Notes: generated by a model from the letters alone, not told the origin. Numbered from the stretch's first letter, positions 12,272 to 51,668 are shown. The stretch: 64,000 bases of DNA from an uncultured archaeon (GCA_964389465.1 CAYMDK010000004.1:15034-79033); one strand, 5' to 3'. Numbers and translations: made by a program.

Positions 12272-12318
12272 GCTGCCCTATCGACGACCACTATTTGAGG
12301 CATGCGCGGCAGGAACCC

Positions 12319-12326
12319 ATATTTAT
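12319..12326 (+). promoter_or_regulatory. TATA box (ATATTTAT) for the giant surface-protein gene
   Basis: It ends 30 nt before ATG 12356, the start that yields a clean signal peptide (MSSPRLPLVALALLAALLLFPTADG). Confidence 0.45.
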
Positions 12327-12355
12327 CCCGGTCGCCGGGATGCCGGCGGGAGCCG

Positions 12356-15300
12356 ATGTCCTCACCACGCCTGCCGCTGGTCGCCCTCGCGCTGCTGGCG
12401 GCACTGCTGCTATTTCCTACAGCAGATGGTGAAACAATCATTGTCGACGTTAATGGTAATGGTGACTACACAACAATCGAAGACGGACTGGAGGCTGCTG
12501 AAGACGGTGACCTTGTCCGTATCTGGGACGGCACTTATGTTGAATACAATTTGACTATCGAGGATCAGATTACTGTACGGGGTAATGGCACGTCTACAGT
12601 CGTTAACGCCAGTTGGGAAGGTCACGGCTTCATTGTAGAACGCGATTATGTTGAAATCAGCCATTTACAAGTAGAATCAAGCGCCAATGGTTCTATACCC
12701 GGAGGCCCTTGGTATGCATATTTTTCTGGAGTTTTCGTCAATGACAATGAAGGTGCCCACCTTTATCTGGAGAGCCTGACTCTGGAAGGTAATTACGTAG
12801 GTTTGGCAGTCGATGGAGAGTTCTACATTCATGTCTCAAACAGTACGATAACTAATTCTACTAATAAAGGAGCCTATTTTCAGAGTAGTTGGTACTTGCG
12901 GATAGACAATTCGACATTCAGTAACAATGACAACAACGGCCTCACTTGTTACTATTGTAACCATGCCAGGATTTACTACAGCGTATTCGAAAATAATGGT
13001 GCCCAGGGATTCAAATCAGAGTATGCTTCCAACCAGACGTTTTACGAGACTGATTTTGAGGAGAATACCGGCATTGGCCTTTATTTCCACGCGGGGTCCT
13101 CTAATTCAGTTCGAAACGCGCAATTCGCTAACAACAAGGGCGGTATTACGTTAACCGATTCTTCCACTCAAAATGAAATTGGAGCGTGTCAGGCATACAA
13201 CAATGAGGATCACGGGTACCTTTTCCGTTCAGAATCCACAAGTAACTACTTGAATAATTCCGGTGGTTGGAGCAATGAGTATGCCCTGGTGTTTGAGGAT
13301 AGCTCACATAACAACACCATAAACGGTGGCTTTTATAGTGGAGATGAGGAATCAATCCTTTTCAGTGGAGATCCATCAACAGGCATTATTCTCTATGAAA
13401 CTAACTTCGGAGAGTCCCTGAGCATCAATTCCGGCTCTGAATTATTAATCAAGAAGAACTTGCGTGTCAAGGTCACCGACAACGGCACGAGTGATTCGTG
13501 GAAGATTTATGACAATCAGAGTGACGAGAACCGAGAGGCGTATTCGGGAACGCACGCGATGTGGCTGGGTAACCCGGACAAGAATGATGGCGAATACGAG
13601 GATAACTGGGATTTCTCGTTCGTTACCAAGGATGCGATCTCGCTCGGCAGCTCGCCCAAGTTGAGCATTGCGACGTGGTACAAAACTGAAAATACATACG
13701 ATGGTGGCCATGTACAGATATCTACTGATGGTGGTGAATCCTGGGCCCTGCTAACACCTGCTGGCGGCTATCCCTGCAGCAACGTGGTTGCCCTCGAGGA
13801 TGAAGGTTACTGCAATCAATCGAACGGCTGGAAAATCCAGAATTTCAGCCTCAGCGACTATGACAACGAGGATATCCAACTCCGCTTCCGGTTCGCCTCG
13901 GACGCGTCCCAAAGCAATTACGAAGGCTGGTATATCGACGATGTTACGGTGACTAACGGTGAGCAGACGCTGTTCTCGGACAATTTCGAGAGTGGCAAGG
14001 TAAAATGGATGATTGACCGTTTTGTCGCCCCACAGGAAGGCGTGGACGCCCGCGTCACTGACCGCGATGGAGTGCAGTACGCATCGCCCTATTTTGGAGG
14101 CAGCTCTCCAAAAAGCGATGACAGTGGCTGGCTGAATTACCAAGGAGCTATACCGGTTCCCGGTATCCTGGTAATTACGCAGCGCTACTACTCTAATTCG
14201 ACTGCGACAGACCAGGATGTAGAACTGCGGCTGCGCTACGTTGACTGGCACGAAACACTAGTCCTGAACTTTTCCCAAGGTTATACCAAGAATTTCAAGG
14301 TCCCTGATTTCCGGGTTTACCACTCTGGAGACCTCTACTACAATATTCAGTCCGCAATAGGGAACGCGACCGCGGGCGACACAGTCTATGCCTGGAACGG
14401 GACCTTTCATGAAAACCTGATAATTGACAGGGGGGTGATGTTGCTGGGTAATGGGACCGCAAATACCATAATCGATGGTGTAGGAAATACCGCGATTAGG
14501 GTCACAGGCAAGTACGCCACTATAGCAAACCTGTCTGTCAAGGGGGCTACCAACCTATCTGGCACAAACAGGTTCGGAATTCTTGTAAATGAGTCCGGCG
14601 GAGCACTGAACGCGACCGGCCTGCGACTGTACGACAACTTTCACGGCATCTATTTCAGCACCACCAAGAAATGGGGTTCCCGGGTTGCCGACAGCATAAT
14701 TGAATCGAACACTAACGCTGGGTTCGGCGTCAATACTGCTACTGGCCTTCGCATCGAGAACTGCACAATCAACAATAATGGTGGCGACGGAATTAACCTT
14801 GATACTACCTCCAATATACTGATTTATGGTAACCACATCCATAACAATACCAACCACGGGATTCGCTGGAACGTAGGAGGAACTGGTAATGGTGTCCACC
14901 ACAACAGGATAATCGACAATGGTGGTGACGGGATTCGAACGGCTTATGTTTCAGCTGGTAGTTTTACCTACAATGAAATCCGGAACCATAACACGGGATT
15001 CGGAGGAAACAGGGGAATCTATACTGGAGCCCGGAACAGTGAATTCCTCCACAACAACATCACCGGTAACGGCTACGGCATCACAATCTTTGGCAGCTGT
15101 TGCTCGGGCACACACGGCACCGAAAATCAGGTCTCACATAATTACATCTCCGAGAACTCCTATGGAATAGAGATCTGGTCATGGGCTGGCAGTAACAATC
15201 AACTTCTCTCAAACACAATCAGTGAAAGTGGTAGAGGTATCACCCTCGGCAGTGGTAGTTTCCATACCATTGAAAATTCCACGATATCCGGTAGTAGCGA

Positions 15301-18300
15301 GTATGATTTTTACATAACGACAGGTGAACATACTGTCGTCAATTCCACTTTCTCTTCCATCTGGATATCCACCAGCGCTGATTTGCGTGAGAGGGAGTTG
15401 TTTAGCCTCCGCATTCTGGAAGAGGATGGTGACCTTTTTGTCGATTTTGAAATTGCAGTTGAGGATGGCGCTGGCACAGCATACGCTTCGCCGCACTGGG
15501 GCGGTAGCGACAATCTTACTGATTCGAGTGGCTCTATCCGCCAGCTGCTGCTACTGGTGCAGCACTGGAACGGTTCCGCAACTCCTGATGTTTTTGCGAC
15601 CAAGGTCAAGTACGCCTTTGGCGTCCGCGCCAAGGCGCAATCACATCTGCTGAACCAGACCACGGCACTGGACATCCATGTGCCAGAATACTGGCGCAAG
15701 GGACTGGTGCGTAATGCCAATTCAGGCGAGGACTACTGGTCGCTGGCGACTGCGATCTCTGACGCCGACCCTGGTGATACACTGCGGGTCTGGCAGGGCA
15801 CCTATCCCGAGATAGTCAGTATCGAAAAGTCACTGGTGGTAACTGGCAATTCCACCACAGGCGTCCTGCTGAAAGCCATCGGTGACGCTTACGCAATTGA
15901 CATTGATGCCGACTCTGTCACGATTCGAAACCTGACTGTTCTGGACGGTAGAGGACTCTATCTTGACAAGCTCTCGAATGATGTAACGCTGGAGTGGTTG
16001 GTAATCCACAATTCCTCGATTAATGGTATTTATGCATTCCAGAACGACAATCTGGCCTTCTCCAATCTGACCGTCACTAACAGCTCCGAGCAGGGGATAG
16101 TGTTCTACAAGACAACCAGCAGCGTTGTTAGCGACTGCGCTGTTTCGAATAGCGGCGGCTCCGGTATCACGGTCGATTCTGCCGACAGCGTTGAGTTGCA
16201 CAGAATTACCCTGACCGGTAATGGAGGATCCGGAATCCGCTTTGACACAAGCGATTCAATATCAGTCAGGGACAGTATCATTCGTGACAATGCTCAGGGA
16301 TCCTGGGAGATTCTTTCGACAAACACGGACGGGCTGGTCCTTGACAATATATCCCTTTTTGGCAGGGAGCTAATCCAGCTTGATGATAATGAGCGGGCCC
16401 ACCTGTCCAACCTGACCCTGGAAATCACCCAGTTTCTGGGCATGGCCATAAAACTGGTGGAATCCGATTCCAACACCCTTCGTGATGTCCTGGTCTCTAC
16501 CATGGCAGATTCAGGCAGTGGAATAATTCTGGACGATTCCAGCGATAACCTGCTCATCAACTGTACCGTCAACGACGTCCAGTACGAGGCGTTCTACTTC
16601 CGGAACTCCGCCAACGACAACACCCTCCTGGATTCGACCGCCTCCGGCGGGCAGTTAGCCCGCCTCAAGTTGTCGACGGCAAGCGGAACAGTGGTCCGCA
16701 ACAGTACTTTCTCTGGCGCTGGAGACGACAGTGGAATCCAGCTCAGTTCCGCGACCGGCACGACTCTGGATAACATTACTACCAAGGATAACGGCGCAGA
16801 TTCAGGCCACAGTGGCCTGGATACTTCCGCCTCTGATGACCTGCTCGTCAAGAATTCCCACTTCAGCAACAATGCGGGCCGCGGCGCCTATATATTTAAC
16901 TCTGATAATGTGGTTATATATTCCAACCAGTTCGACAGCAACGCCAACGGTCTGGTTCTCTGGACTGTGGATAATGTGCGTGCCTCCCACAACAGCTTTG
17001 AGATTGGGGACGGCAATGCCATTGAGTTGCGTTATGGTTCGAACAGCTGGATTGACAACAATACCATCGAGCAGTACGGGAATGACGCCTCACAGTATTT
17101 TGGCATTGGAGTATTCTTCTCGAGCGGAAACAGAATCCATAACAATACTGTTTCCGACAGTGAAGTCACTGGCATACTGCTTGGTGCCGAGTCCGAATCC
17201 AATTACGTGACCGAGAATGAGCTGACACGAATCGAGAATTCAGCCCTCCATATAATCCATGACAACAACTACCTTGCCCGGAATACCCTCTCCGAAACCG
17301 AGTCGACCGGTATCACGATAGAGGGAGACTGGAACGACATTGTCGATAACGTGGTAACTGACGGTGAGGCGTCCGGGATTGAGGTGTTCGGCAGTAATAA
17401 CCAGATTGCTGGAAACAACATTTCCGGAAACTCCGACATTCCGTTCCGGGTTCCAGGCCACTGGAACACATTTTATGGAAATACGGTTGACGCCGCAGAC
17501 GAGGATGCGGTACTGGTTTCCGGCAGCAACAACCAGTTTACTGGCAACCAGCTCACCAACGGCGATATCGGCTTCCTCGTTACCAGCGACTGGAACCAGT
17601 TCAATACCAACATCCTAAGTTTCTTCAACGAAGCCTGCTTTGACCTCAGTGGCGATTATATAACCCTTCAGGGCAACCACTGCTCGGCCGCGGCAGAGGG
17701 TGCCCGGCTGGCTTCGGTTACCGGCACACTCGCCTGGGATAACAACTGGATCGGAGTTGAGACAGCCTTATACCTATCCGGCTCAGCCGGTAACCAGTTC
17801 ACCAACGAATCCGTCTCGGCAGCTTCGCAGGCGCTGATTCTGATGGTCAGCAGCGATAATGAATTCAGCGGTTCTTCACTCGCAGGCGAAATCCACCTGA
17901 CATCCAACTCGACTGCCAACTACCTCAACAGCTCCGCGTTGCAGGGTACAATTAACTGCGATTCCACCTCGCAGCTCTTCATCGCTGACGACATCACCAT
18001 CGAGGCACGCAACAGCGATTTCGATACTCCGTTCGAGGGTGTCCACTTGCGTCTCAAGGCTGACGGGCAGGTGATCTATGTTACCTCCCACTTCAACGGT
18101 AGCGATGCTACCACTGGTGAAGACGGCCGCATCGAGCCGCAGATGCTGGTCCACACCAGCTATACTGGCAGCTCTGACCCTGAGTCCACGGAATTCAGGC
18201 TGGCGTATGCCTACCGCCTGCGGCAGGAAGCAACCGTGTTCAACACTACGGAGTCGCACCTGGAAACAATCCACATTCCGGATGAATGGAACTACGGTCT

Positions 18301-21300
18301 GGTCCAGAACCTGCGGACCGGTGAAGAATACGGGCTGATTTCCGACGCGGTCGAAAATGCGAACGAGGGAGATGAGTTGCTGGTATGGCCCAGCCTCTAC
18401 GAGGAGTCGATAACGGTTGACAAGCGGGTCACAATTACCGGGCTTGGTCCGGGAGTGAGGGTGCAGGGCGGCCCTGAAGCTGCCTTCAACCTTGGAAATG
18501 ACGGTACAGTGTTGCAGAACCTGTCAATCGGAAACTCTTCCTTTGGCATCAATGTTTACGGTGTGGATATCCAGCTCACAAACCTTACTATTTCCGATAT
18601 CGAGTTTGTAGGAATCTGGACTTCATCCACCTCGGTAGTAGCGCGACTCCAGATGCGTGATATTCAGATAACCAACGCTTCTGAAGGATTATGGCTTGAC
18701 GGTCACGACTTCAACTTGGAGAGGGTTTTTGTGTCCCAGAATAGACATGCCTCCTCACTGAATCAGTATGGTTCCGGGCACCAAATTACATATTCCAGCT
18801 TTTCTGACTCAGCTACCATCTATAACGGTGACCTGATTGAACTAGAGAATGTAGTTTTTGCGATGTTAGGGTTGAGTAATCAGACCAATGCCCTGCTTGA
18901 AAATGTAACGTCAGATTACTTGAGTATTGAGGGAGGTCACGACAACCTGTTGCGACAGAGCAACATAGCCAACCACATTTCTTTGTGGGGAAGCTCGATT
19001 GGCAACCGCGCACTGGGCACTTCTTTCAGCAGCATTATTTGTGAGGAAGGCAGCACCCTCCTCATCGAACATCGCACAGTGATTGAGCTGCGCACGGTAG
19101 AAGGGGCAGGAAGCTGGCTGGAGATTCAGGTAACTGAGGACAGTATCGGTTTGCAGAACCAGATAGTCTACTCTACTTCCTTCTTTGGAGGCGGCGATGC
19201 CGCCTCAGATGAAGATGGTCAGCTGCCAGAGCTGCTGATAGCTGGAACGATCTACAATGGGAGTTCGGTCCCGGTTCCGGCCGTGACGGATGTAAAGGTT
19301 CAGTTCAACGGCATCCAGGAATTCAGCTTCAACCTTACCGTAGATTCAACGAAGAGAATATGGCTCAACCTGCCCCCTGTACCAGAGATAGAATCCGTAG
19401 AACCAAGTCCCGCCATCCAGGGTGACTTGCGGTCACCGGTTGACAGCGGAACTATTGCGTGGTGGCCGTTGGACGAAGGCAGCGGCACGCATGTCATCGA
19501 CGCGAGCGGCAATGGCAATAACCTGACGCTGGGTCCAACCCCGTCCTGGGTACCCGGCCAGTCCGGCAGCGCCGTCCACTTTGATGGCTTGGACCGCCAC
19601 CTTGCCGGCCCGCTAATCAAACCGACCGAGATGACGATTGAATTATGGTTCAACACAATCGACAGCGGTATCGGGACGCTAATCTCTGATTACTACAGCG
19701 GAGACAGCAACCGGAACCACCATTTCTACCTGCTGAATGGTGAGCCCCGCTTCGAGCAGACTCAGGGCGGCGTGCCGCTCTCACTGGCGGCTGGTTTCCA
19801 GTTCAACGACGGATTATGGCACCACGTTGCGGTGGTCCGTTCCGCGGACGAGGTGAGCCTGTGGGTTGACGGGGAGTTGCTCGATTCAACGCCCTCGAGT
19901 GGTGCAGACACTTCTGAGAGCAACACCTGGCTCGGTATGTCGCCTGACCAGAGTAACCCCTATGCGGGCCTGCTGGACAACATACGTGTTTCTAATTTTG
20001 CCCGCCACCCAGAAGATTTTCTGATTGGGGGTGGGACGGTAAAATTTTCCGGTATTGGAAATGACCCAGATGGACTAATTTCCAACTGGACTTGGATATC
20101 ATCTGAGGATGGTATTTTGGGATATGATGAATTTCTAGAGTTTGCAGTTGACAGTCTCAGTCTGGGCAGTCACTCAATCACTCTCCAGGTTGTAGACAAT
20201 AACGGTAGTGCTACCCAGTCAAGTACCGGTCTGTCCGTTAAGCGGCGGCCTGGAGCGGTAATTGTCAATCCACCTTCTTTGGTGCACGAGGGAGATATCG
20301 TTACATTACAGGGCGAGGCGACCGGTGGGATTCCTATCTCTTCTTGGGAGTGGTGGTCTGACAAGGCTGGTCTTCTCGGTAGTGACGAAACAATCCAGAT
20401 ATCCACCTTGACGAACGGTACTTACAACATCACGTTGCGGCTGCAGGCCTCCAGTGGCCTCTGGAGCGAAAACACGACAGTTGCCATCTACGTAAATGGC
20501 CGCCCGCGGCTTTCCGACCCTTCTATCACGGCACTGCTGATGGTGCGGGGCGGGGTCATCTCGTTCGGCGCCGCCGGCATGGACGATGCGGACGCCGGCG
20601 CGGAGCTGGTTTTCAGCGCTGCCTACCGCCGCGTCGGCACCAGTAGCTGGGAATCCGCCTACATCTCGCCGTCAGCCTGGGATGCGGGACGTGTGGAGTT
20701 CAGTTTCAGCCCCGACTTCGACGCCTCGCTCGGCAGCTACCTGTTCCAGCTGCAGGCACAGGACAGCCACGGCGGCCTCTCGGGCTGGCTGGTACTGCCG
20801 CTACCGGTGGAGGTCACCAACATCCCGCCGCAGGTCTCGACTACACTGGTCCCGGACTCAGTGGTCAGCGCCGACGGGCCAATGCTCGAGTTCAGCGCAG
20901 TCTTCTCCGATACCGACGGCAGCGTGGAGCAGCTCCAGTGGGTATCCAGTCTGGATGGAGTGCTTTCGACCAACGCCAGCTTCTCGATGAGCCCCGAGAG
21001 CTTCACTGCTGGCAACCATACCATTACGCTGCGCGTGCAGGACAACGACGGCACCTGGAGTGAGACTTCGTTCACGGTCGAGGTGCAGCCGGTCACTATG
21101 CCGGATGAGGAGTTTTTCGGCATTGACAGAAGAAACTTGCTGATTGTTGCCGCAGCACTACTGCTCGGGACGCTGCTGCTCGGTGGTGGACTTCTGCTCC
21201 GTTCGCGCGAGCCGGCAGTCATCGCGACGGTTGCTGACGACGCCGAGGAAGAGCAGCCGCAACGGCTGGTCGAGAGCTGGCTGCCTCCCGAAGGACTCGA

Positions 21301-23986
21301 GGGATACGAGCAGCTGGTCGCAGAATACATGGCGCGCCGCCGCGAGGCGTACCTAGCGGCGCCGAACAACGAAAAGGAGCTGGACTACCTCCATAACAAC
21401 CGCGAGCGGTTTGCGATTTCATCCTACTTCGAGGTCCCGGTCGACCCGGCGCACGTCATCAGCGACTGGGCACTGCCTGAAAACCTGCGTGGAAATGTCC
21501 ATGTCGACGCGGTCCGCAGCGAAATCATCGAGCGGGTGCTTACCGGGCCGCCCGACCGCAACTACGTCATCATTGGCGAGCCGGGCGTCGGCAAGACGGT
21601 GCTGCTGTTCGAGCTGTTCGACCGATTGATGGACCGCATCCCGGTCGGTCGCATCTCGACCACCACTCTTGGAAAGGCGCACGAGAAGTTCGGCGTGCGG
21701 CTGTTTTACGACGATATCCAGGAGAACACCGAGCTGGTGCAGGCGCTTACCGACCGGCAGATTAGCGGCGTCATCCTGAGCGCCCGCGAGGCGGACTGGG
21801 CCTCCCTGCCGGCCGAGTTCCAGGCGCAGTTCGACCGGCTGACGGTGCCGCTCTTCTCCGGGAGCGAGATGAAGCTGCTCAGCCGCAAGATGCTCGGCTT
21901 CTCGGGCCTCGGCTACGACGCGGCGGCCATCGAATCGCTGGTGCAGTTTGCCGAAGGCTCCCCTATCTACGTCTGGTCGATGATTCGCGAAATGCTGCAC
22001 CGCGGTCTGCGGGCGCTCACCGCCGACTACATCCAGGAAAACGCCATTCGTGGAATGAACAACTACGTTTCGTTGCTACTGCAGCGGCTGCTCAAGGAGG
22101 GCGAGGAGTACCGCCCTGGCGGTCTCCACGCACTTACCTCGCTGGTGTTCCTCGCGGAAACCATGGAGGAGCGCTTCTGCCACGACCTGTTCTACGACGC
22201 GGCGGTCGAGCGGCTTTCGGCCCACGCGCAGGAGCAGCTTAATGACCCGATGGACCAGGGCACCTTCAACCGCGCGCTGGCATACCTGCCGGGCGACGGC
22301 AGCGTCATCAAATTCCCGCACGACACCTGGGTTGACGTTATCCTGGGCCACGGCGACCTGAATCCGTTCCGCACCGAGCTGCGCGCAATCTTCAGGCAGT
22401 TTGTAGACAGCGGCCTTTTCGAGAAGGTCAAGCGTGAAGTCGTCCCCGGCGTATGGGAAACCACCGCCAGCCGCTACCATCGTAGTCCGTCACGGCAGAA
22501 AGGCTCGTTCCTCGCCCTCGCGGATACGCTACTCCATAACTTCCAGGTTTCCGAGCTGAAGGAGCTGGGAGTCGATATCGAGCTGATTCGCGAGGTCGCC
22601 TCGACCTACTCCCACCTGCCGGCCGCCGCGTCGCTGGTGTCGCGCATCCAGGCGGCCGAGCCGCAGCAGGTGACCCGGATTATCAACATCCAGGATTCGG
22701 TTTCGCCCGCTAGTGGAGGTCACCCGCCTTACCGGATTGAGGAGCTTTACCTGATTTACAATGACGGCCGTCTTATCACGGGGCAGTCGCTCAAGGAAAC
22801 CGCAATCGACCAGGACATCATGGGCAGCATGCTCACCGCTATCAACGACTTCGTCCAGGACTCGTTCCATGCGGCGGGGGAACTGGGGTCAATCAACTAC
22901 GGCGACAACCGTATCATGATTGAGCGCGGCGAGCAGGCGGTGCTGGCAGTGGTTATATACGGCGAGGAGACGCGCGAACTCCGCTCGCAGGTTGCGAACA
23001 CCTTGCTGCAGATCGAGGAGCGTTTTAGCAGAGAGCTCGCCGGCTGGGATGGCGATGTCGAACTGCTCTCGGGAACGCGCGAAATCCTGACGCCGCTACT
23101 CGACGCCACTCGCAAAGTCAGCCGTGAGATGATTGACGAATACCTCGCGCTCCAGAAGGTCGGCCTGCGGGCGAGCTGGGAGCACGTCGCCGGTCACGTT
23201 CGCGTCCAGATGGAGGTGTGCAACTATGATTCGCAACCGCTCACCGAGGCGCACCTGAAGCTGGAGCGGACCGCGTCGCTGCTCGAGCTGGTCGCGACAC
23301 AACCGGAAACGGAGCAGACCGGCAGCGGCGTACGCCTCGGCGAAATCGAGCCGCACGACAGCCGCGAGCTGGTGTTCTGGTTCGAACCGCGCGGAGCCGG
23401 TTCCGCCTCCCTCGCGTTGCGGCTCGACTACCGTGATTCCGAAGGTCGTAATGCTGGTGTGACGACGACGCTCTTCGCCGGTGCCGAGGTCTTCCGCAAG
23501 GATGACCTGCCCGACGGGAAGGCGCTACAGAAGCTGCTGAAAGGTGGCAAATCCGCCAGGCCACCTGCCGCGGCCGCGCCAGCCGAAACGGTCGAGGTGG
23601 CTGCGGAAGAGCAGGTTCCGGTAGCTGAGGCAGAAATAGTGGTCGAGACGGAAGTCATCGTGGAACCCGGGCCGGAGCCGGAACCGCCGGCAGAAGCTGT
23701 TGCCGAGCCCGAGCCGGAAGATGAAAAGGAACTAGAACCAGAGCCGGAACTGCTCGACCTTGGCGAGTCAGGGATGGATGACCTTCTCGGCAAGCTCTCG
23801 GAACTTGGCCCCGAAGCCCAGCCGGAATCCGGGGATAAATCATCTGACGATGAATATAAAAAAGCTGGAGAGGAATCTGACGTCGTGAATCCAGCTTCTA
23901 AGAAGAAGAAACAGAAACCCGGCAACGATAATGATGATGGTGAGCTGGGCGATATCTTCGCCAAGTTGAAGGAACTGGACGATTAA
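12356..23986 (+). CDS. Giant type-I membrane protein: beta-helix/LamG/PKD ectodomain - TM - cytoplasmic P-loop (STAND-like) NTPase + Roadblock-like domain + acidic tail
   Basis: Single uninterrupted ORF (track 12302..23986; ATG 12356 preferred). It has a signal peptide and four cap motifs of the pectate-lyase/NosD-like beta-helix type: YTTIEDGLEAAEDGDLVRIWDGTY, YNIQSAIGNATAGDTVYAWNGTF, WSLATAISDADPGDTLRVWQGTY and GLISDAVENANEGDELLVWPSLY. Each cap is followed by N/G/I-rich ~22-aa PbH1-like repeats. A MAM/choice-of-anchor-J-like sandwich is present (HVQISTDGGESW..LRFRFASD..GWYIDDVTV), as are LamG (LWHHVAVV..LWVDGEL..IRVSNFAR) and four PKD-like domains. The TM helix is LLIVAAALLLGTLLLGGGLLL. Walker A is GEPGVGKT and Walker B-like is VRLFYDD. 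Confidence 0.9.
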   Translation: MSSPRLPLVALALLAALLLFPTADGETIIVDVNGNGDYTTIEDGLEAAEDGDLVRIWDGTYVEYNLTIEDQITVRGNGTSTVVNASWEGHGFIVERDYVEISHLQVESSANGSIPGGPWYAYFSGVFVNDNEGAHLYLESLTLEGNYVGLAVDGEFYIHVSNSTITNSTNKGAYFQSSWYLRIDNSTFSNNDNNGLTCYYCNHARIYYSVFENNGAQGFKSEYASNQTFYETDFEENTGIGLYFHAGSSNSVRNAQFANNKGGITLTDSSTQNEIGACQAYNNEDHGYLFRSESTSNYLNNSGGWSNEYALVFEDSSHNNTINGGFYSGDEESILFSGDPSTGIILYETNFGESLSINSGSELLIKKNLRVKVTDNGTSDSWKIYDNQSDENREAYSGTHAMWLGNPDKNDGEYEDNWDFSFVTKDAISLGSSPKLSIATWYKTENTYDGGHVQISTDGGESWALLTPAGGYPCSNVVALEDEGYCNQSNGWKIQNFSLSDYDNEDIQLRFRFASDASQSNYEGWYIDDVTVTNGEQTLFSDNFESGKVKWMIDRFVAPQEGVDARVTDRDGVQYASPYFGGSSPKSDDSGWLNYQGAIPVPGILVITQRYYSNSTATDQDVELRLRYVDWHETLVLNFSQGYTKNFKVPDFRVYHSGDLYYNIQSAIGNATAGDTVYAWNGTFHENLIIDRGVMLLGNGTANTIIDGVGNTAIRVTGKYATIANLSVKGATNLSGTNRFGILVNESGGALNATGLRLYDNFHGIYFSTTKKWGSRVADSIIESNTNAGFGVNTATGLRIENCTINNNGGDGINLDTTSNILIYGNHIHNNTNHGIRWNVGGTGNGVHHNRIIDNGGDGIRTAYVSAGSFTYNEIRNHNTGFGGNRGIYTGARNSEFLHNNITGNGYGITIFGSCCSGTHGTENQVSHNYISENSYGIEIWSWAGSNNQLLSNTISESGRGITLGSGSFHTIENSTISGSSEYDFYITTGEHTVVNSTFSSIWISTSADLRERELFSLRILEEDGDLFVDFEIAVEDGAGTAYASPHWGGSDNLTDSSGSIRQLLLLVQHWNGSATPDVFATKVKYAFGVRAKAQSHLLNQTTALDIHVPEYWRKGLVRNANSGEDYWSLATAISDADPGDTLRVWQGTYPEIVSIEKSLVVTGNSTTGVLLKAIGDAYAIDIDADSVTIRNLTVLDGRGLYLDKLSNDVTLEWLVIHNSSINGIYAFQNDNLAFSNLTVTNSSEQGIVFYKTTSSVVSDCAVSNSGGSGITVDSADSVELHRITLTGNGGSGIRFDTSDSISVRDSIIRDNAQGSWEILSTNTDGLVLDNISLFGRELIQLDDNERAHLSNLTLEITQFLGMAIKLVESDSNTLRDVLVSTMADSGSGIILDDSSDNLLINCTVNDVQYEAFYFRNSANDNTLLDSTASGGQLARLKLSTASGTVVRNSTFSGAGDDSGIQLSSATGTTLDNITTKDNGADSGHSGLDTSASDDLLVKNSHFSNNAGRGAYIFNSDNVVIYSNQFDSNANGLVLWTVDNVRASHNSFEIGDGNAIELRYGSNSWIDNNTIEQYGNDASQYFGIGVFFSSGNRIHNNTVSDSEVTGILLGAESESNYVTENELTRIENSALHIIHDNNYLARNTLSETESTGITIEGDWNDIVDNVVTDGEASGIEVFGSNNQIAGNNISGNSDIPFRVPGHWNTFYGNTVDAADEDAVLVSGSNNQFTGNQLTNGDIGFLVTSDWNQFNTNILSFFNEACFDLSGDYITLQGNHCSAAAEGARLASVTGTLAWDNNWIGVETALYLSGSAGNQFTNESVSAASQALILMVSSDNEFSGSSLAGEIHLTSNSTANYLNSSALQGTINCDSTSQLFIADDITIEARNSDFDTPFEGVHLRLKADGQVIYVTSHFNGSDATTGEDGRIEPQMLVHTSYTGSSDPESTEFRLAYAYRLRQEATVFNTTESHLETIHIPDEWNYGLVQNLRTGEEYGLISDAVENANEGDELLVWPSLYEESITVDKRVTITGLGPGVRVQGGPEAAFNLGNDGTVLQNLSIGNSSFGINVYGVDIQLTNLTISDIEFVGIWTSSTSVVARLQMRDIQITNASEGLWLDGHDFNLERVFVSQNRHASSLNQYGSGHQITYSSFSDSATIYNGDLIELENVVFAMLGLSNQTNALLENVTSDYLSIEGGHDNLLRQSNIANHISLWGSSIGNRALGTSFSSIICEEGSTLLIEHRTVIELRTVEGAGSWLEIQVTEDSIGLQNQIVYSTSFFGGGDAASDEDGQLPELLIAGTIYNGSSVPVPAVTDVKVQFNGIQEFSFNLTVDSTKRIWLNLPPVPEIESVEPSPAIQGDLRSPVDSGTIAWWPLDEGSGTHVIDASGNGNNLTLGPTPSWVPGQSGSAVHFDGLDRHLAGPLIKPTEMTIELWFNTIDSGIGTLISDYYSGDSNRNHHFYLLNGEPRFEQTQGGVPLSLAAGFQFNDGLWHHVAVVRSADEVSLWVDGELLDSTPSSGADTSESNTWLGMSPDQSNPYAGLLDNIRVSNFARHPEDFLIGGGTVKFSGIGNDPDGLISNWTWISSEDGILGYDEFLEFAVDSLSLGSHSITLQVVDNNGSATQSSTGLSVKRRPGAVIVNPPSLVHEGDIVTLQGEATGGIPISSWEWWSDKAGLLGSDETIQISTLTNGTYNITLRLQASSGLWSENTTVAIYVNGRPRLSDPSITALLMVRGGVISFGAAGMDDADAGAELVFSAAYRRVGTSSWESAYISPSAWDAGRVEFSFSPDFDASLGSYLFQLQAQDSHGGLSGWLVLPLPVEVTNIPPQVSTTLVPDSVVSADGPMLEFSAVFSDTDGSVEQLQWVSSLDGVLSTNASFSMSPESFTAGNHTITLRVQDNDGTWSETSFTVEVQPVTMPDEEFFGIDRRNLLIVAAALLLGTLLLGGGLLLRSREPAVIATVADDAEEEQPQRLVESWLPPEGLEGYEQLVAEYMARRREAYLAAPNNEKELDYLHNNRERFAISSYFEVPVDPAHVISDWALPENLRGNVHVDAVRSEIIERVLTGPPDRNYVIIGEPGVGKTVLLFELFDRLMDRIPVGRISTTTLGKAHEKFGVRLFYDDIQENTELVQALTDRQISGVILSAREADWASLPAEFQAQFDRLTVPLFSGSEMKLLSRKMLGFSGLGYDAAAIESLVQFAEGSPIYVWSMIREMLHRGLRALTADYIQENAIRGMNNYVSLLLQRLLKEGEEYRPGGLHALTSLVFLAETMEERFCHDLFYDAAVERLSAHAQEQLNDPMDQGTFNRALAYLPGDGSVIKFPHDTWVDVILGHGDLNPFRTELRAIFRQFVDSGLFEKVKREVVPGVWETTASRYHRSPSRQKGSFLALADTLLHNFQVSELKELGVDIELIREVASTYSHLPAAASLVSRIQAAEPQQVTRIINIQDSVSPASGGHPPYRIEELYLIYNDGRLITGQSLKETAIDQDIMGSMLTAINDFVQDSFHAAGELGSINYGDNRIMIERGEQAVLAVVIYGEETRELRSQVANTLLQIEERFSRELAGWDGDVELLSGTREILTPLLDATRKVSREMIDEYLALQKVGLRASWEHVAGHVRVQMEVCNYDSQPLTEAHLKLERTASLLELVATQPETEQTGSGVRLGEIEPHDSRELVFWFEPRGAGSASLALRLDYRDSEGRNAGVTTTLFAGAEVFRKDDLPDGKALQKLLKGGKSARPPAAAAPAETVEVAAEEQVPVAEAEIVVETEVIVEPGPEPEPPAEAVAEPEPEDEKELEPEPELLDLGESGMDDLLGKLSELGPEAQPESGDKSSDDEYKKAGEESDVVNPASKKKKQKPGNDNDDGELGDIFAKLKELDD
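19447..20020 (+). other. LamG/concanavalin-A-like lectin domain inside the giant protein
   Basis: WWPLDEGSGTHVIDASGNGNNLTL..GQSGSAVHFDG..MTIELWF..LWHHVAVVRSADEVSLWVDGEL..AGLLDNIRVSNFAR is the classic LamG_3 pattern. Confidence 0.7.
21137..21199 (+). other. Single predicted transmembrane helix of the giant protein
   Basis: LLIVAAALLLGTLLLGGGLLL is followed by RSREP, so the positive-inside rule places the C-terminal ~930 aa in the cytoplasm. Confidence 0.7.
21575..21598 (+). other. Walker A (P-loop) codons GEPGVGKT in the cytoplasmic part of the giant protein
   Basis: These codons are in frame with the ORF. The Walker B-like VRLFYDD lies at 21695-21715 and LTVPLFSGSEMKLLSRKM follows, a pattern typical of STAND / Arch_ATPase-type NTPases. 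Confidence 0.65.
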
Positions 23987-24161: not shown

Positions 24162-25094
24162 ATGTCACCGTCGGAAACGGACTCAGATGGCGTTGCCCGG
24201 TCGCCTGGCGGGTGGTACAGCCACCGCTGGCCGCTGCTGGGGCTGGCGGGCTGTTTCGTCGTGGCGCAGCTGCTGGCGATGGCGCTTGTGCCGAGTTTTG
24301 ACGCGGCGGAGATGCAGGCGTTCGAAGACCCCGATAATCCGGCCAATTCCGGCCTGTATTTCGCGCTGATTCTGGCTTTCACCGCCTTCGTGCTGTGGCT
24401 GGTGCGGCGCGGGTTGCAGAACCTGCTGCAGCTGATTTTCATGGGCGCCATCGGGATGACCTTCGTCTACGTATTCTACCCGCTGTTCCTCGCGCTCGGC
24501 TTCGCACCGGCTGGCGCGTGGCTCGCCGGCATCGCGCTGGCGGTCCAGCTTACCTTCCTGCTGCTGACGTTCCCCGAGTGGTATGTCATTAACACCTGCG
24601 GGGTGCTGATTTCGGCCGGCGCGGCCGCCATCTTTGGCATATCGTTCGGGCTGGTCCCGGCGCTGCTGCTGCTCGTGGGATTGGCAATCTACGACGCGTG
24701 GGCAGTCTACCGCACCGGCCACATGGTTGACCTGGCTGACACGGTGATGGACTTGCGGCTGCCCATCCTGCTGGTGATGCCCAAGCAGCGCGGCTATTCG
24801 TTCCTGAAGCAGGGCAGCCTGCAAGCGCAACTGGATTCGGGCGAGGAGCGCGAGGCGATGTTCATGGGGCTGGGCGATATCGTGATTCCCGGGGTACTGG
24901 CCGTTTCCGCCAAGGCCACTCTCGGCTGGGGCGTCGGGCTGGGTGCATTGCTAGGGGGTCTGGCCGGTTTCGCGGTCCTGATGCACTTCGTGCTCGGCGG
25001 CCGCCCGCAGGCGGGGCTGCCGCTGCTCAACGGCGGCGCTATCCTGGGCTGGGCGCTCGCCGCGCTCGCCTTGCGGGGCGGCCTGGGACTGTAG
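24162..25094 (+). CDS. Presenilin/signal-peptide-peptidase homologue (archaeal PSH, A22 intramembrane aspartyl protease)
   Basis: Polytopic protein with catalytic LAIYDAWAVY (YD) and FMGLGDIVIPGVL (GxGD) motifs about 50 aa apart, plus a PAL-like GLPLLNGG near the C-terminus. Confidence 0.8.
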   Translation: MSPSETDSDGVARSPGGWYSHRWPLLGLAGCFVVAQLLAMALVPSFDAAEMQAFEDPDNPANSGLYFALILAFTAFVLWLVRRGLQNLLQLIFMGAIGMTFVYVFYPLFLALGFAPAGAWLAGIALAVQLTFLLLTFPEWYVINTCGVLISAGAAAIFGISFGLVPALLLLVGLAIYDAWAVYRTGHMVDLADTVMDLRLPILLVMPKQRGYSFLKQGSLQAQLDSGEEREAMFMGLGDIVIPGVLAVSAKATLGWGVGLGALLGGLAGFAVLMHFVLGGRPQAGLPLLNGGAILGWALAALALRGGLGL

Positions 25095-25095
25095 C

Positions 25096-35654: not shown

Positions 35655-35719
35655 CGCGCAGCCCGGCCCAAAACCTATATGTAGCAAAACCTCCCGTCGG
35701 AACGCGCAGGTGCGCGTAA

Positions 35720-41629: not shown

Positions 41630-41632
41630 AGC

Positions 41633-51649: not shown

Positions 51650-51668
51650 ACCGGCGCGAGAGAATTTA

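What the first reader, a model, noticed from the sequence alone, without database searches (positions are those of the whole stretch)
21400..23986. Cytoplasmic tail: STAND/Arch_ATPase-like P-loop, helical region, Roadblock/LC7-like domain, CARDB-like sandwich, acidic disordered tail
These elements are seen directly in the sequence:
- Walker A GEPGVGKT at 21575-21598.
- Walker B-like VRLFYDD at 21695-21715.
- LTVPLFSGSEMKLLSRKM, the L.L.PLS..E..L pattern that follows the NTPase core in STAND, ORC-like and Arch_ATPase proteins.
- An ~350-aa helical region.
- At 22730-23026, YRIEELYLIYNDGRLITGQS..DIMGSMLTAINDFVQDSF..INYGDNRIMIERGEQAVLAVVIYGEE. Its alternating beta/alpha pattern resembles Roadblock/LC7/MglB-type regulators of small GTPases.
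- A beta-sandwich, VQMEVCNYDSQPL..ELVFWFEPRGAGSASLALRLDY.
- A ~140-aa EP-rich and K/D-rich tail.
An NTPase and a Roadblock-like platform in a single chain, tethered to the membrane, suggests a self-contained switch. No partner GTPase or kinase is encoded nearby.
Basis: partly seen in the sequence, partly recalled or inferred. Interest (0 to 1): 0.7.

Follow-up and report, generated by a model that had tools for sequence, protein, structure and literature searches.

The report
Membrane-tethered STAND ATPase with longin tail
The inner end of a giant archaeal surface protein carries a nucleotide-driven switch domain, a longin-type (not Roadblock) domain, an Ig-like domain and a sticky disordered tail, built from two uncharacterised domain families that archaea reuse widely.

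Summary
Window 21200-23983 encodes the 928-aa cytoplasmic tail of a 3,894-aa type-I surface protein (12302-23986) from a Poseidoniia (Marine Group II/III) archaeon, and every quoted motif sits at the stated coordinates.

The P-loop region is a STAND-class NTPase module (NBD-HD1-WHD-HD2). Walker A, Walker B (DD), sensor-1 Arg, GxP and a WHD "PHD" histidine are invariant, but no curated family threshold is passed.

- **"Roadblock" domain:** it has longin topology (ββαβββα). Its structural neighbours are adaptin σ/μ and COPI ζ/δ, not MglB or LAMTOR.
- **"CARDB" sandwich:** it is an Ig-like, weakly cohesin-like domain.
- **Acidic tail:** it carries two copies of a conserved amphipathic motif, φφxKLxEL.

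The two modules are independently mobile. The NTPase occurs mostly without the longin unit. The longin domain defines a family of about 4,800 clusters that forms cytoplasmic tails of Thermoplasmatota surface proteins, and only 3 of 143 top members carry the NTPase.

A self-contained NTPase/Roadblock switch is therefore not supported. The best reading is a transmembrane scaffold or receptor whose STAND module oligomerises and whose longin-Ig-motif platform recruits partners. This is a new variant of known kinds.

The parts
12302..12433 (+). N-terminal signal-peptide-like region of the giant ORF (aa 1-44; the hydrophobic core is aa 19-43).
   Evidence: Hydropathy scan and the ORF translation.
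12434..21136 (+). Ectodomain of about 2,900 aa, made of many right-handed beta-helix/NosD repeats plus InhA-like MAM, LamG and PKD domains. GC3 is 0.55-0.64, against 0.83-0.89 in neighbouring genes.
   Evidence: Pfam Beta_helix 1.7e-82, NosD 3.7e-59, Laminin_G_3 4.7e-17, InhA-like_MAM 1.4e-16, PKD 2.3e-08. GC3 values.
21137..21199 (+). Single transmembrane helix LLIVAAALLLGTLLLGGGLLL, followed by RSRE.
   Evidence: Hydropathy 2.4. Orthologues have a TM helix 25-38 aa before the NTPase module, with a conserved G-T and a basic stop-transfer sequence.
21278..21508 (+). Family-specific N-terminal extension of the NTPase module (W.PP..L...LDYLHNNRERFAISSYFE.P.DP...WALP.NLRGNVH.D). It is highly conserved and has no known family.
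   Evidence: Invariant columns in A5. pLDDT 86-93.
21509..21856 (+). Nucleotide-binding domain with five strands. Motifs: Walker A GEPGVGKT at 21575-21598, Walker B RLFYDD at 21695-21715, sensor-1 VILSAREADW at 21770-21799, and DRLTVPLFS..E at 21833-21880.
   Evidence: Model strands 103-107, 130-133, 148-151, 172-176 and 193-197. K106, T107, D145, D146 and R170 are invariant. Pfam AAA_16 scores 27.6 bits against a cut-off of 32.6. nSTAND3, NACHT and NB-ARC match below threshold in 39, 16 and 15 of 57 relatives.
21860..22006 (+). Helical lid (HD1) with the GxP motif GSPIYVW at 21956-21976. There is no conserved sensor-2 arginine.
   Evidence: Helices 202-248 of the model. G227, S228, P229 and I230 are invariant, and no Arg in the lid is invariant.
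22022..22351 (+). Winged-helix-like domain with the invariant FPHDTW motif at 22313-22330. This histidine corresponds to the MHD/LHD histidine of NB-ARC proteins and Apaf-1.
   Evidence: The strand at 350-352 followed by the helix at 356-362. F346 to W351 are invariant. Foldseek matches to Apaf-1, NLRP3, NLRP2 and EfAvs5 span the whole module.
22370..22657 (+). Second helical domain (HD2-like).
   Evidence: Helices 372-467.
22643..22702 (+). Conserved peptide RIQAAEPQQVTRIINIQDSV. Most paralogues end at or just after it. It is modelled as disordered yet is nearly invariant.
   Evidence: paralogues end ...INIQDSVISRS.... pLDDT 27-34. Conservation.
22730..23056 (+). Longin-type alpha/beta domain (ββαβββα plus a short helix), ending in the invariant W.GD. 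Signature motifs are LIY.DGR, D..IM..MLTA...FV.DSF and YG.
   Evidence: DSSP order in two independent models. Foldseek: AP2 mu2 4.4e-07, delta-COP 5.5e-07, zeta-COP TMt 0.60-0.63, AP sigma TMt 0.54-0.56. The profile finds 4,807 cluster representatives.
23057..23146 (+). Conserved helical linker (L.P...D.T...REM.D.Y) joining the longin domain to the sandwich.
   Evidence: Alignment A2. Helices 601-630.
23159..23488 (+). Ig-like beta-sandwich of 8-9 strands, weakly cohesin-like.
   Evidence: Strands 635-744. Relatives P0127 and P0126 score 27.0 and 26.4 bits on Pfam Cohesin (cut-off 24.1). In a PDB profile search all six hits are cohesins, E 0.09-2.2. Foldseek: alpha-adaptin appendage Ig subdomain at rmsd 2.9 Å over 108 columns, plus TRAP subunits, the FCHo1 muHD and the Kir cytoplasmic domain.
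23489..23983 (+). Acidic, E/A/P/K/D-rich disordered tail with two copies of a conserved amphipathic motif: MDDLLGKLSEL at 23774-23806 and LGDIFAKLKELDD at 23945-23983, the C-terminus.
   Evidence: Composition. The motif [LIVMF]..K[LM].[EDQ][LIF] occurs in 2-4 copies in nearly all complete orthologues, and most end ...GMDDLLGKLDEL-COOH.

Best explanation
**What it is (shown).** The region is the cytoplasmic tail of a giant type-I surface protein of a Poseidoniia archaeon. It is a cassette of four units:
1. A STAND-class P-loop NTPase module (NBD-HD1-WHD-HD2) with its own N-terminal extension. It founds a Poseidoniia-specific family.
2. A longin-fold domain. It belongs to a very large uncharacterised family that forms the cytoplasmic tails of Thermoplasmatota surface proteins.
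3. An Ig-like, cohesin-like beta-sandwich.
4. An acidic disordered tail carrying repeated amphipathic short motifs.

**How it most likely works (inferred from how STAND proteins work).**
- The NTPase is a nucleotide-controlled oligomerisation switch. In the ADP state it is closed, with the WHD histidine on the nucleotide. In the ATP state it is open and self-associates.
- It is tethered to the membrane through one helix. Its assembly would therefore cluster the 2,900-aa beta-helix/LamG/PKD ectodomains, or be triggered by their engagement.
- Assembly would also present a multivalent array of longin-Ig platforms and C-terminal motifs, which would recruit soluble partners.
- The longin domain is a separate protein-interaction platform, not a cis regulator of the NTPase.
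For: - **Topology and domains:**
- **STAND features:** Walker A K/T, Walker B DD, sensor-1 Arg, GxP and the WHD FPHDTW motif are all invariant in 20 diverse members. They sit on the expected secondary-structure elements of a model with pLDDT 81.
- **Structural matches:** Foldseek matches NLRP, Avs5, Apaf-1, NLRP3 and SAMD9, as well as the RuvB, RFC and Clp AAA+ cores, at E about 1e-6 to 1e-5.
- **Sequence matches:** sub-threshold AAA_16, nSTAND3, NACHT and NB-ARC hits occur in most relatives.
- **Link to surface proteins:** the NTPase module is fused after the TM helix of different ectodomains (beta-helix, WD40/PQQ+PKD, LamG) and after a DUF805 multi-TM protein. A soluble paralogue starts directly after the stop codon of a >1,241-aa PKD/TSP3 membrane protein.
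- **Longin unit as an autonomous tail module:** it follows a TM helix directly in proteins that lack the NTPase. The family has 4,807 representatives. Of the top 143, 87 have an upstream TM helix and 60 end within 35 aa of the domain.
- **Partner-binding tail:** the short motifs are conserved in 2-4 copies inside an otherwise variable acidic tail.
- **Mosaic gene:** GC3 is 0.55-0.64 in the ectodomain and 0.83 in the NTPase module. This fits a conserved cytoplasmic cassette joined to an exchangeable ectodomain.
Against: - Nothing here shows nucleotide binding, hydrolysis or oligomerisation.
- No curated STAND model passes its threshold.
- Structure alone does not separate STAND from ORC/RuvB/RFC-type AAA+ proteins.
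- The module lacks the C-terminal repeat sensor (WD40, LRR or TPR) typical of STAND proteins, and a giant N-terminal ectodomain acting as sensor would be unusual.
- No binding partner for the longin-Ig platform or the short motifs was identified. Genomic neighbours are housekeeping genes.
- Inter-domain geometry is uncertain (pTM 0.43).
Confidence: 0.45

Rival explanations
1. The NTPase and the Roadblock-like domain form a self-contained switch in one chain, with the alpha/beta domain acting as a built-in GAP/GEF-type regulator of the P-loop domain.
For: - Both domains are present in one chain and are conserved together in the orthologous group.
- Longin and Roadblock domains are established regulators of NTPases (PMC10933270).
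- No separate GTPase is encoded nearby.
Against: - The NTPase is AAA+/STAND-like, not a TRAFAC small GTPase.
- About 100 of the 120 listed homologues carry the NTPase module but end before the longin unit.
- Only 3 of 143 top longin-family representatives carry the NTPase.
- The two are separated by a ~20-residue stretch modelled as disordered, and no confident inter-domain packing is predicted.
- Where longin-tail proteins do have an NTPase neighbour, it is a separate Ras/Arf-like GTPase.
Confidence: 0.1
2. An adaptor-like sorting module. The longin domain, the Ig-like sandwich and the C-terminal MIM1/LD-like motifs would work like eukaryotic mu/sigma-adaptin plus appendage. They would recruit small GTPases or membrane-remodelling machinery (for example ESCRT/Vps4) to sort, turn over or shed the surface protein in vesicles.
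For: - Foldseek's best hits for the C-terminal unit are AP2 mu2, delta-COP, the FCHo1 muHD, zeta-COP, AP sigma and the alpha-adaptin appendage.
- Ras/Arf-like GTPase genes lie directly downstream of one TM-longin protein, in two contigs, and about 5 kb from another.
- Asgard proteins combine longin with the adaptin appendage and Vps28-C, and euryarchaeal ESCRT loci encode adaptin-like Ig proteins (PMC11188069).
- The motif core φxxKLxxL resembles the MIM1 core LxxRLxxL (the resemblance comes from my own knowledge of the MIM1 consensus).
Against: - The similarity is at fold level only. The full mu2 alignments have rmsd 17-31 Å, and the sandwich is about 110 aa, against a ~270-aa two-lobed muHD.
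- There is no profile-level similarity to AP sigma2.
- No small GTPase, Vps4 or ESCRT-III gene is in the window or in the Poseidoniia loci examined.
- No MIT-like domain was found in the paralogues' N-termini.
- Six of the eight TM-longin contexts lack a GTPase.
Confidence: 0.12
3. An NLR/Avs-like immune sensor. The STAND module would detect a phage or invader protein and trigger an effector.
For: - Many prokaryotic STAND NTPases are antiviral.
- There are weak hits to the NACHT antiphage protein EruA (E 2.7e-4, 19 bits against a cut-off of 1000) and to Avs4.
- Foldseek matches EfAvs5.
Against: - PADLOC gives only P-loop-level matches of 20 bits or less.
- No nuclease, SIR2, TIR or protease effector is present.
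- The module is 50-63% identical across the class and occurs in two or more copies in several MAGs, unlike patchy, fast-evolving defence genes.
- It lies among housekeeping genes: PolB, presenilin-type protease and Lhr.
- No copy was found in viral contigs.
Confidence: 0.06
4. Notch-like regulated intramembrane proteolysis. The presenilin/SPP-family protease encoded 175 nt downstream would cut the TM helix and release the STAND-longin tail.
For: - The downstream SPP gene (PF06550, 5e-76) has YD and GLGD motifs.
- The order giant gene then SPP is kept in 12 of 14 related genome loci.
- It is kept in 24 of 24 metagenome loci with SPP at 60% identity or more and about 2 kb or more upstream.
- Natural substrates of archaeal SPP/PSH are listed as unknown (PMC9263693).
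- The TM helix is glycine-rich.
Against: - SPP is packed tightly with the metallophosphoesterase-Lhr pair (a 1-nt gap and a 4-nt overlap), not with the giant gene.
- More distant lineages (SPP 56-57% identical) keep HD...PolB-x-SPP-MPE-Lhr without any giant gene. The adjacency therefore looks like insertion into a conserved housekeeping block.
- One locus at 60% identity has an integrase-like ORF upstream instead.
Confidence: 0.05

Closest known systems
STAND NTPases (AAA_16/MalT-type, NACHT, NB-ARC; for example Apaf-1, NLRs, Avs proteins)
   Same: - The core is a five-stranded ASCE fold.
- It has Walker A, a Walker B ending in DD, a sensor-1 Arg (hhhSxR), the L.PL..E motif, GxP in the lid instead of a sensor-2 Arg, and a winged-helix domain with a conserved His (PHD, against MHD/LHD).
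- A second helical domain follows.
- Foldseek alignments span the whole module.
   Different: - No curated model reaches its threshold. The best is AAA_16 at 27.6 bits against 32.6.
- It has its own conserved 80-aa N-terminal extension and a conserved C-terminal peptide in place of WD40, LRR or TPR sensor repeats.
- It is tethered behind a TM helix to huge ectodomains.
- It is restricted to Poseidoniia among the named hits.
Longin domains of the SNARE-like superfamily (AP sigma and mu N-terminal domains, zeta/delta-COP)
   Same: - The secondary-structure order is the same: ββαβββα(α).
- These are the best structural neighbours, with E from 4e-7 to 1e-4 and TM 0.54-0.63 on the target.
   Different: - There is no detectable sequence or profile similarity.
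- It has its own signature motifs (DGR, MLTAI.DFV.DSF, W.GD).
- It occurs as the cytoplasmic tail of type-I membrane proteins of Thermoplasmatota rather than in coat or SNARE proteins.
Roadblock/LC7/MglB domains
   Same: The two share a related three-layer alpha/beta core. The literature treats Roadblock, longin and profilin as sharing a core (PMC10933270).
   Different: - There is no N-terminal helix before the first hairpin, and a helix follows the last strand instead.
- Pfam Robl_LC7 does not match.
- No Roadblock protein is among the top 50 Foldseek hits.
- No partner small GTPase is encoded nearby.
Cohesin (PF00963), the alpha-adaptin appendage Ig subdomain and other Ig-like sandwiches
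   Same: - It is an 8-9-strand sandwich.
- Relatives pass the Pfam Cohesin threshold.
- All six hits of the PDB profile search are cohesins.
- It superposes on the alpha-adaptin appendage Ig subdomain at rmsd 2.9 Å over 108 columns.
   Different: - The window's own copy gives no Pfam hit.
- It is cytoplasmic, and no dockerin-like partner is seen.
- It is not CARDB. CARDB matches are confined to a different, N-terminal sandwich of the soluble paralogues.
Asgard multidomain proteins with longin plus adaptin appendage (plus Vps28-C) described with archaeal ESCRT systems (PMC11188069)
   Same: A longin-fold domain is combined with an adaptin-appendage-like Ig domain in one archaeal protein.
   Different: - This protein is from a non-Asgard lineage.
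- It has no Vps28-C, and no ESCRT genes are nearby.
- It is fused to a STAND NTPase and a giant ectodomain.

Membership tests
STAND NTPases | Walker A GxxxxGK[ST] and a Walker B hhhhD[DE]. | tested here: met
   GEPGVGKT and RLFYDD are present. K106, T107, D145 and D146 are invariant in A5. They lie on strands beta1 and beta3 of the model.
STAND NTPases | Sensor-1 arginine after strand 4 (hhhTSR-type), and no sensor-2 arginine in the lid (GxP instead). | tested here: met
   VILSAREADW has an invariant R170. GSPIYVW has invariant G227, S228, P229 and I230. No Arg in the lid is invariant.
STAND NTPases | A winged-helix domain after the lid, carrying a conserved histidine (MHD/LHD) that contacts ADP. 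| tested here: inconclusive
   FPHDTW is invariant and lies at a strand-helix junction of a WH-like domain. Contact with the nucleotide cannot be tested without a ligand-bound structure.
STAND NTPases | Passes a curated STAND family model (AAA_16, NACHT, NB-ARC or nSTAND). | tested here: not met
   AAA_16 scores 27.6 bits against a cut-off of 32.6, and nSTAND3 15.4 against 27.2. Relatives give only sub-threshold matches. NCBIfam gives only weak EruA and Avs4 hits.
STAND NTPases | Nucleotide-dependent oligomerisation. | not testable with these tools
   This needs biochemistry or cryo-EM.
Roadblock/LC7/MglB | Match to the family profile (PF03259). | tested here: not met
   No hit at E<=1 for the tail, for the 291-aa C-terminal region or for 23 relatives.
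Roadblock/LC7/MglB | alpha-beta-beta-alpha-beta-beta-beta order with an N-terminal helix. | tested here: not met
   Both models give ββαβββα, preceded by a disordered linker. In TM-longin relatives only 15-30 aa separate the TM helix from the first strand.
Roadblock/LC7/MglB | Roadblock proteins as closest structural neighbours. | tested here: not met
   None is in the top 50 Foldseek PDB hits. Lower ranks were not shown.
Longin (SNARE-like superfamily) | beta-beta-alpha-beta-beta-beta-alpha(-alpha) order. | tested here: met
   DSSP gives strands 12-21 and 26-31, helix 39-56, strands 62-68, 71-77 and 81-89, then helices 93-109 and 111-114. Model 1 gives the same order. The longin topology definition is from PMC10933270.
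Longin (SNARE-like superfamily) | Structural similarity to solved longin domains. | tested here: met
   AP2 mu2 4.4e-07, delta-COP 5.5e-07, zeta-COP 3.1e-5 to 5.7e-5 (TMt 0.60-0.63), AP-1 sigma 5.7e-5 to 1e-4 (TMt 0.54-0.56).
Longin (SNARE-like superfamily) | Sequence or profile homology to known longin families. | tested here: inconclusive
   No Pfam hit. The PDB profile search gives only spurious histone H2B matches. No library of longin profiles was available.
CARDB (PF07705) | Match to the family profile in the 23159-23488 sandwich. | tested here: not met
   No CARDB hit in the tail or among 23 relatives of this region. CARDB matches come from the soluble paralogues (precomputed for P0105, P0106 and P0115; 11 of 57 A1 members), which have an N-terminal sandwich and lack this C-terminal one.
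Cohesin (PF00963) | Match to the family profile above the gathering score. | tested here: inconclusive
   Relatives P0127 (27.0 bits) and P0126 (26.4 bits) pass the 24.1 cut-off, and P0130 scores 20.2. The window's own copy gives no hit. In the PDB profile search all six hits are cohesins, but at E 0.09-2.2.
mu-adaptin / muHD-type architecture | A longin domain followed by a ~270-aa two-lobed mu-homology domain, superposable as a unit. | tested here: not met
   Alignments to mu2 cover both parts, but with rmsd 17-31 Å and TM 0.17-0.30. The sandwich here is a single ~110-aa domain.

The most novel reading that the evidence does not exclude
Thermoplasmatota archaea, which are not Asgard, would use a longin-fold domain as a standard cytoplasmic handle on their surface proteins. 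The domain is often followed by an adaptin-appendage-like Ig domain. The handle would recruit nucleotide switches: separate Ras/Arf-like GTPases in some lineages, and a fused STAND ATPase in Poseidoniia. This would couple what the cell touches outside to machinery inside. It would be a prokaryotic counterpart, or an evolutionary relative, of the eukaryotic cargo-adaptor logic of mu/sigma-adaptin plus appendage.
Probability: 0.15. Interest if true: 0.8.

Novelty: new variant of a known kind. Interest (0 to 1): 0.58.

Why it matters
- **Ecology.** Poseidoniia (Marine Group II/III) are among the most abundant planktonic archaea and are uncultured. Their giant surface proteins are thought to mediate attachment to particles and polymers, but nothing is known about how those proteins talk to the cell interior.
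- **A candidate link to the interior.** This tail shows that these proteins carry a conserved nucleotide-switch cassette.
- **Two families absent from the libraries searched.** Neither matches a Pfam or NCBIfam model. One is a Poseidoniia-specific STAND-like NTPase module. The other is a longin-fold domain with about 4,800 cluster representatives that marks the cytoplasmic ends of Thermoplasmatota surface proteins.
- **Evolutionary interest.** Longin domains are usually discussed as eukaryotic or Asgard signature parts. A large family with this fold in another archaeal phylum, sometimes next to Ras/Arf-like GTPases, bears on where these building blocks came from.
- **Limits.** The mechanism remains inferred.

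Tried and rejected
- **PDB sequence searches.** The tail and the NTPase profile against PDB sequences gave only P-loop-level matches to Clp/Hsp104 and mS29.
- **Longin profile against the PDB.** It gave only spurious histone H2B matches.
- **Profile comparisons.** This decides nothing.
- **Genome scan with an alignment.** The search for related loci on genome contigs failed. The 57-sequence alignment had no usable stretch, and the second scan was swamped by generic P-loop hits. A hand-made FPHDTWxD...G.G DNA pattern replaced it.
- **MIT-domain idea.** I asked whether the helical N-termini of the soluble paralogues are MIT domains that bind the MIM1-like tail motifs. There was no MIT hit, only weak TPR matches.
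- **Defence system.** PADLOC and NCBIfam gave only P-loop-level hits, and there were no copies in viral contigs.
- **Partner GTPase.** No Ras/Arf-like ORF was found in the window or in any Poseidoniia locus held at that point (L001-L044), using an HMM built from five archaeal GTPases.
- **Presenilin-substrate idea.** The giant-gene/SPP adjacency is strongly conserved in one clade. However, more distant lineages keep PolB-x-SPP-MPE-Lhr without the giant gene, so the adjacency is best explained as insertion into a conserved block.
- **Literature.** Searches found no description of these families.

Full report
**1. Observation**

The finding lies in the last quarter of a single 3,894-aa ORF at window 12302-23986 on the + strand. 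A hydropathy scan finds only two strongly hydrophobic stretches: one at the N-terminus (signal-peptide-like) and one at aa 2946-2966 (window 21137-21199). The 928 residues encoded by 21200-23983 therefore form a C-terminal tail behind one transmembrane helix.

The part before the helix is built from extracellular-type domains. Pfam gives Beta_helix 1.7e-82, NosD 3.7e-59, InhA-like MAM, LamG and PKD. The protein is thus type I and the tail is cytoplasmic.

The window is archaeal. Neighbouring genes encode the primase large subunit, PolB, a presenilin/SPP-family protease, a metallophosphoesterase and Lhr. The closest homologues come from Thermoplasmatota, Poseidoniia and Marine Group III MAGs.

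**2. The NTPase module**

*Sequence searches.* Pfam gives only sub-threshold matches: AAA_16 at 27.6 bits (cut-off 32.6), plus AAA_22 and nSTAND3. Among 57 relatives, 41 touch AAA_16, 39 nSTAND3, 16 NACHT and 15 NB-ARC, none convincingly. PDB sequence searches see only the P-loop.

*Model.* An AlphaFold2 model of tail residues 20-790 has mean pLDDT 81. It shows these elements in order:
- A five-stranded nucleotide-binding core.
- A three-helix lid.
- A winged-helix-like domain.
- A second helical domain.

*Conserved motifs.* These residues are invariant in 20 members that are 50-95% identical:
- GEPGVGKT (Walker A).
- RLFYDD (Walker B ending in DD).
- VILSAREADW (arginine at the sensor-1 position).
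- DRLTVPLFS..E.
- GSPIYVW (GxP in the lid, with no conserved sensor-2 arginine).
- FPHDTW, at a strand-helix junction of the winged-helix domain.

From established knowledge of STAND proteins (Leipe, Koonin and Aravind 2004, cited from memory), this is the STAND motif set. It includes the counterpart of the MHD/LHD histidine of NB-ARC proteins and Apaf-1.

*Structural neighbours.* Foldseek against the PDB returns NLRP-type proteins, EfAvs5, Apaf-1, NLRP3 and SAMD9, alongside RuvB, RFC and Clp AAA+ cores, at E about 1e-6 to 1e-5. Structure alone therefore does not separate STAND from ORC/RuvB-type AAA+ proteins. The motifs do favour STAND.

*Family-specific features.* The module has a strongly conserved 80-aa N-terminal extension. 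It also has a nearly invariant C-terminal peptide (QAAEP.QVT.IINIQDSV) that is modelled as disordered.

**3. The alpha/beta domain and the sandwich**

*Topology.* Both models give the order ββαβββα plus short helices for 22730-23056. A disordered linker precedes it. That is the longin order. Roadblock has a helix before the first hairpin (topology statement in PMC10933270).

*Structural neighbours of the 291-aa C-terminal model.* Foldseek puts these on top:
- AP2 mu2 at 4.4e-07 and COPI delta-COP at 5.5e-07.
- zeta-COP with TM 0.60-0.63 on the target.
- AP sigma subunits with TM 0.54-0.56.

No Roadblock, MglB or LAMTOR entry appears in the 50 rows shown. Pfam Robl_LC7 is never hit.

*The sandwich (23159-23488).* It has 8-9 strands and gives no CARDB hit. 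Two relatives pass the Pfam Cohesin threshold (27.0 and 26.4 bits against 24.1). In a profile search of the PDB all six hits are cohesins, at non-significant E-values. Structurally it resembles generic Ig-like sandwiches: the alpha-adaptin appendage Ig subdomain at rmsd 2.9 Å over 108 columns, TRAP subunits, the FCHo1 muHD and the Kir cytoplasmic domain.

*Comparison with mu-adaptin.* The mu2 alignments span both domains, but with rmsd 17-31 Å. The resemblance to mu-adaptin is one of architecture, not a superposable unit.

**4. The disordered tail**

Residues encoded by 23489-23983 are E/A/P/K/D-rich, with 28% D+E. The tail holds two copies of an amphipathic motif: MDDLLGKLSEL and, at the very C-terminus, LGDIFAKLKELDD. 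Across orthologues the motif [LIVMF]..K[LM].[EDQ][LIF] is present in 2-4 copies. Most proteins end exactly with ...GMDDLLGKLDEL.

From memory, the core resembles both the MIM1 motif (LxxRLxxL) and paxillin LD motifs (LDxLLxxL). I could not discriminate between them, and I found no MIT-like partner domain.

**5. The modules are independently mobile**

*NTPase module.* Homologues of the tail fall into two classes.
- About 15 match the whole tail.
- About 100 match only residues 24-501 (the NTPase module), and most of these end just after it.

The second class has varied front ends:
- Soluble proteins with a helical N-terminus and a CARDB-like sandwich.
- A DUF805 multi-TM protein.
- WD40/PQQ+PKD or LamG ectodomains followed by a TM helix.

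One soluble paralogue starts directly after the stop codon of a >1,241-aa PKD/TSP3 membrane protein. This is a split version of the fusion seen here.

*Longin-linker-sandwich unit.* It occurs directly behind a TM helix in 300-440-aa proteins that lack the NTPase.

*Size and make-up of the longin family.* A profile of the longin domain finds 4,807 cluster representatives at E<=1e-3, and 3,092 at E<=1e-10, among 1.84 billion. Named members are Thermoplasmata, Thermoplasmatota or Euryarchaeota MAG proteins. Neither Pfam nor NCBIfam covers the domain. Of the top 143 representatives:
- 87 have an upstream TM-like segment.
- 60 end within 35 aa of the domain.
- 51 carry the sandwich.
- 24 have two or more copies.
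- Only 3 have the NTPase.

*Distribution of the NTPase module.* A DNA pattern for FPHDTWxD...G.G finds 36 genome loci, almost all in Poseidoniia or MGIII MAGs. Several MAGs hold two copies. Most copies are giant ORF-TM-NTPase-longin-sandwich genes like this one.

**6. Context**

*In the window.* No GTPase or kinase gene is present. An HMM built from five archaeal Ras/Arf-like GTPases finds nothing in the window or in the Poseidoniia loci held at that point.

*Elsewhere in Thermoplasmatota.* I examined eight TM-longin genes.
- One has a Ras/Arf-like GTPase gene 89 nt downstream, in two contigs.
- One has two GTPases plus a V4R protein about 5 kb away.
- Two have AAA_16-TPR STAND genes nearby.
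- Four have none of these.

This hints that the longin tails meet nucleotide switches supplied in trans or by fusion. The sample is small.

*The soluble NTPase paralogue.* It sits in a conserved neighbourhood with a HerA/DUF87 ATPase and DUF805 membrane proteins.

**7. The presenilin lead, followed and downgraded**

A presenilin/SPP-family gene lies 175 nt downstream of the giant gene.
- That order is kept in 12 of 14 related genome loci.
- It is kept in all 24 metagenome loci with SPP at 60% identity or more and about 2 kb or more of upstream sequence.

However, SPP is packed with the metallophosphoesterase-Lhr pair. Lineages with SPP at 56-57% identity keep HD...PolB-x-SPP-MPE-Lhr with no giant gene. 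The adjacency is best explained as the giant gene sitting in a conserved housekeeping block. The idea of intramembrane release of the tail remains possible but weak.

**8. Interpretation**

*Shown.*
- The tail is a cassette of a STAND-like NTPase, a longin-fold domain, an Ig-like sandwich and a motif-bearing disordered tail.
- The catalytic motifs are intact.
- The NTPase and the longin unit are separate evolutionary modules, each linked to membrane or surface proteins.

*Inferred.*
- The NTPase works as STAND proteins do, as a nucleotide-gated oligomerisation switch. At the membrane this would cluster, or respond to clustering of, the giant adhesin-like ectodomains.
- The longin-Ig platform and the short motifs recruit partners that are not yet identified.

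The GC3 mosaic fits a conserved cytoplasmic cassette joined to an exchangeable ectodomain. GC3 is 0.55-0.64 in the ectodomain, 0.83 in the NTPase module and 0.83-0.89 in the neighbours.

The NTPase is of the wrong class for Roadblock/longin regulation. The two modules mostly occur apart.

**9. Novelty and score**

Both folds are known kinds. The new elements are:
- The Poseidoniia-specific NTPase family.
- The large longin-fold tail family in a non-Asgard phylum.
- The fusion of the two behind a giant ectodomain.

Literature searches found no description of any of these. The closest precedent is the Asgard combination of longin with the adaptin appendage (PMC11188069).

I rate this a new variant of a known kind, with interest 0.58. 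It is a solid, extensible observation with an inferred mechanism.

Noticed in passing
window 12302-23986, compared with its flanks: The gene is compositionally mosaic. GC3 is 0.55-0.64 in the ectodomain, 0.83 in the NTPase module, 0.77 in the longin+sandwich and 0.59 in the acidic tail. Neighbouring genes have 0.83-0.89. This suggests ectodomain exchange onto a resident cytoplasmic cassette.
   Followed up: partly
window 24162-28523: A presenilin/SPP-family protease (24162-25094, YD and GLGD motifs), a metallophosphoesterase (1-nt gap) and Lhr (4-nt overlap) form a tight same-strand block directly after the giant gene. The four-gene order is conserved in one clade (12/14 genome loci, 24/24 metagenome loci). 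More distant lineages keep SPP-MPE-Lhr without the giant gene. Why an intramembrane protease is packed with a DNA-repair pair is unexplained.
   Followed up: yes
window 22643-22702, and the C-termini of P0063, P0072, P0091, P0019 and P0031: The peptide QAAEP.QVT.IINIQDSV(ISRS) is nearly invariant but is modelled as disordered. In most paralogues it lies at or near the protein's C-terminus (P0094 continues about 40 aa beyond it). It is probably a docking or strand-addition motif.
   Followed up: no
window 23774-23806 and 23945-23983; orthologues in L002-L037: The C-terminal short motif is repeated 2-4 times, and most orthologues end exactly with ...GMDDLLGKLDEL-COOH. A basic KKKxKK patch and an acidic run precede it.
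   Followed up: partly
L046 11544-12044, L047 2798-3298, L045 20032-21770: Ras/Arf/Roc-like small GTPase genes lie next to, or within 5 kb of, TM-longin surface-protein genes in other Thermoplasmatota. In one case a V4R-domain gene accompanies them.
   Followed up: partly
L050 1-262 and L051 6788-8950: Soluble AAA_16+TPR STAND genes lie close to longin-tailed surface-protein genes. This may be an unfused counterpart of the fusion in the window.
   Followed up: no
L001, L038-L040 (soluble paralogues P0058 and P0063): Conserved neighbourhood: a divergently oriented HerA/DUF87 ATPase (about 742 aa) with small genes of unknown function, then DUF805 membrane proteins and a primase-S-like gene downstream. 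P0031 is a DUF805-NTPase fusion.
   Followed up: partly
L041 2-5932: The soluble NTPase paralogue P0094 starts directly after the stop codon (TAG-ATG) of a >1,241-aa PKD/TSP3 membrane protein that has its own ~110-aa helical cytoplasmic tail.
   Followed up: partly
window 51582-53225: An MFS/ATG22-like transporter ORF has GC 0.42 and GC3 0.36 in a genome with about 0.66 GC. It lies next to a second ATG22-like gene at 49817-51649, and the two ORFs overlap by about 70 nt. It is probably foreign DNA.
   Followed up: no
window 32736-45144: Two more large surface-type proteins are present: a 972-aa protein with TSP3 repeats, and a 1,969-aa protein with Big/MG2/CarboxypepD_reg domains and a C-terminal DUF4129. 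A DUF4350-MoxR(AAA_3)-DUF58 cluster follows them.
   Followed up: no
TM helices of orthologues: The sequence around the TM helix is conserved despite different ectodomains...(F)SNN-LPL...G.....GT(L/V)(L/A)-LRR(N/R)R.... The TM-longin family has ...GFGGVLLYRS.... This suggests the helix itself is under constraint.
   Followed up: no
L068 22-1245: In one locus whose SPP is 60% identical, an integrase-like ORF on the opposite strand replaces the giant gene upstream of SPP.
   Followed up: no
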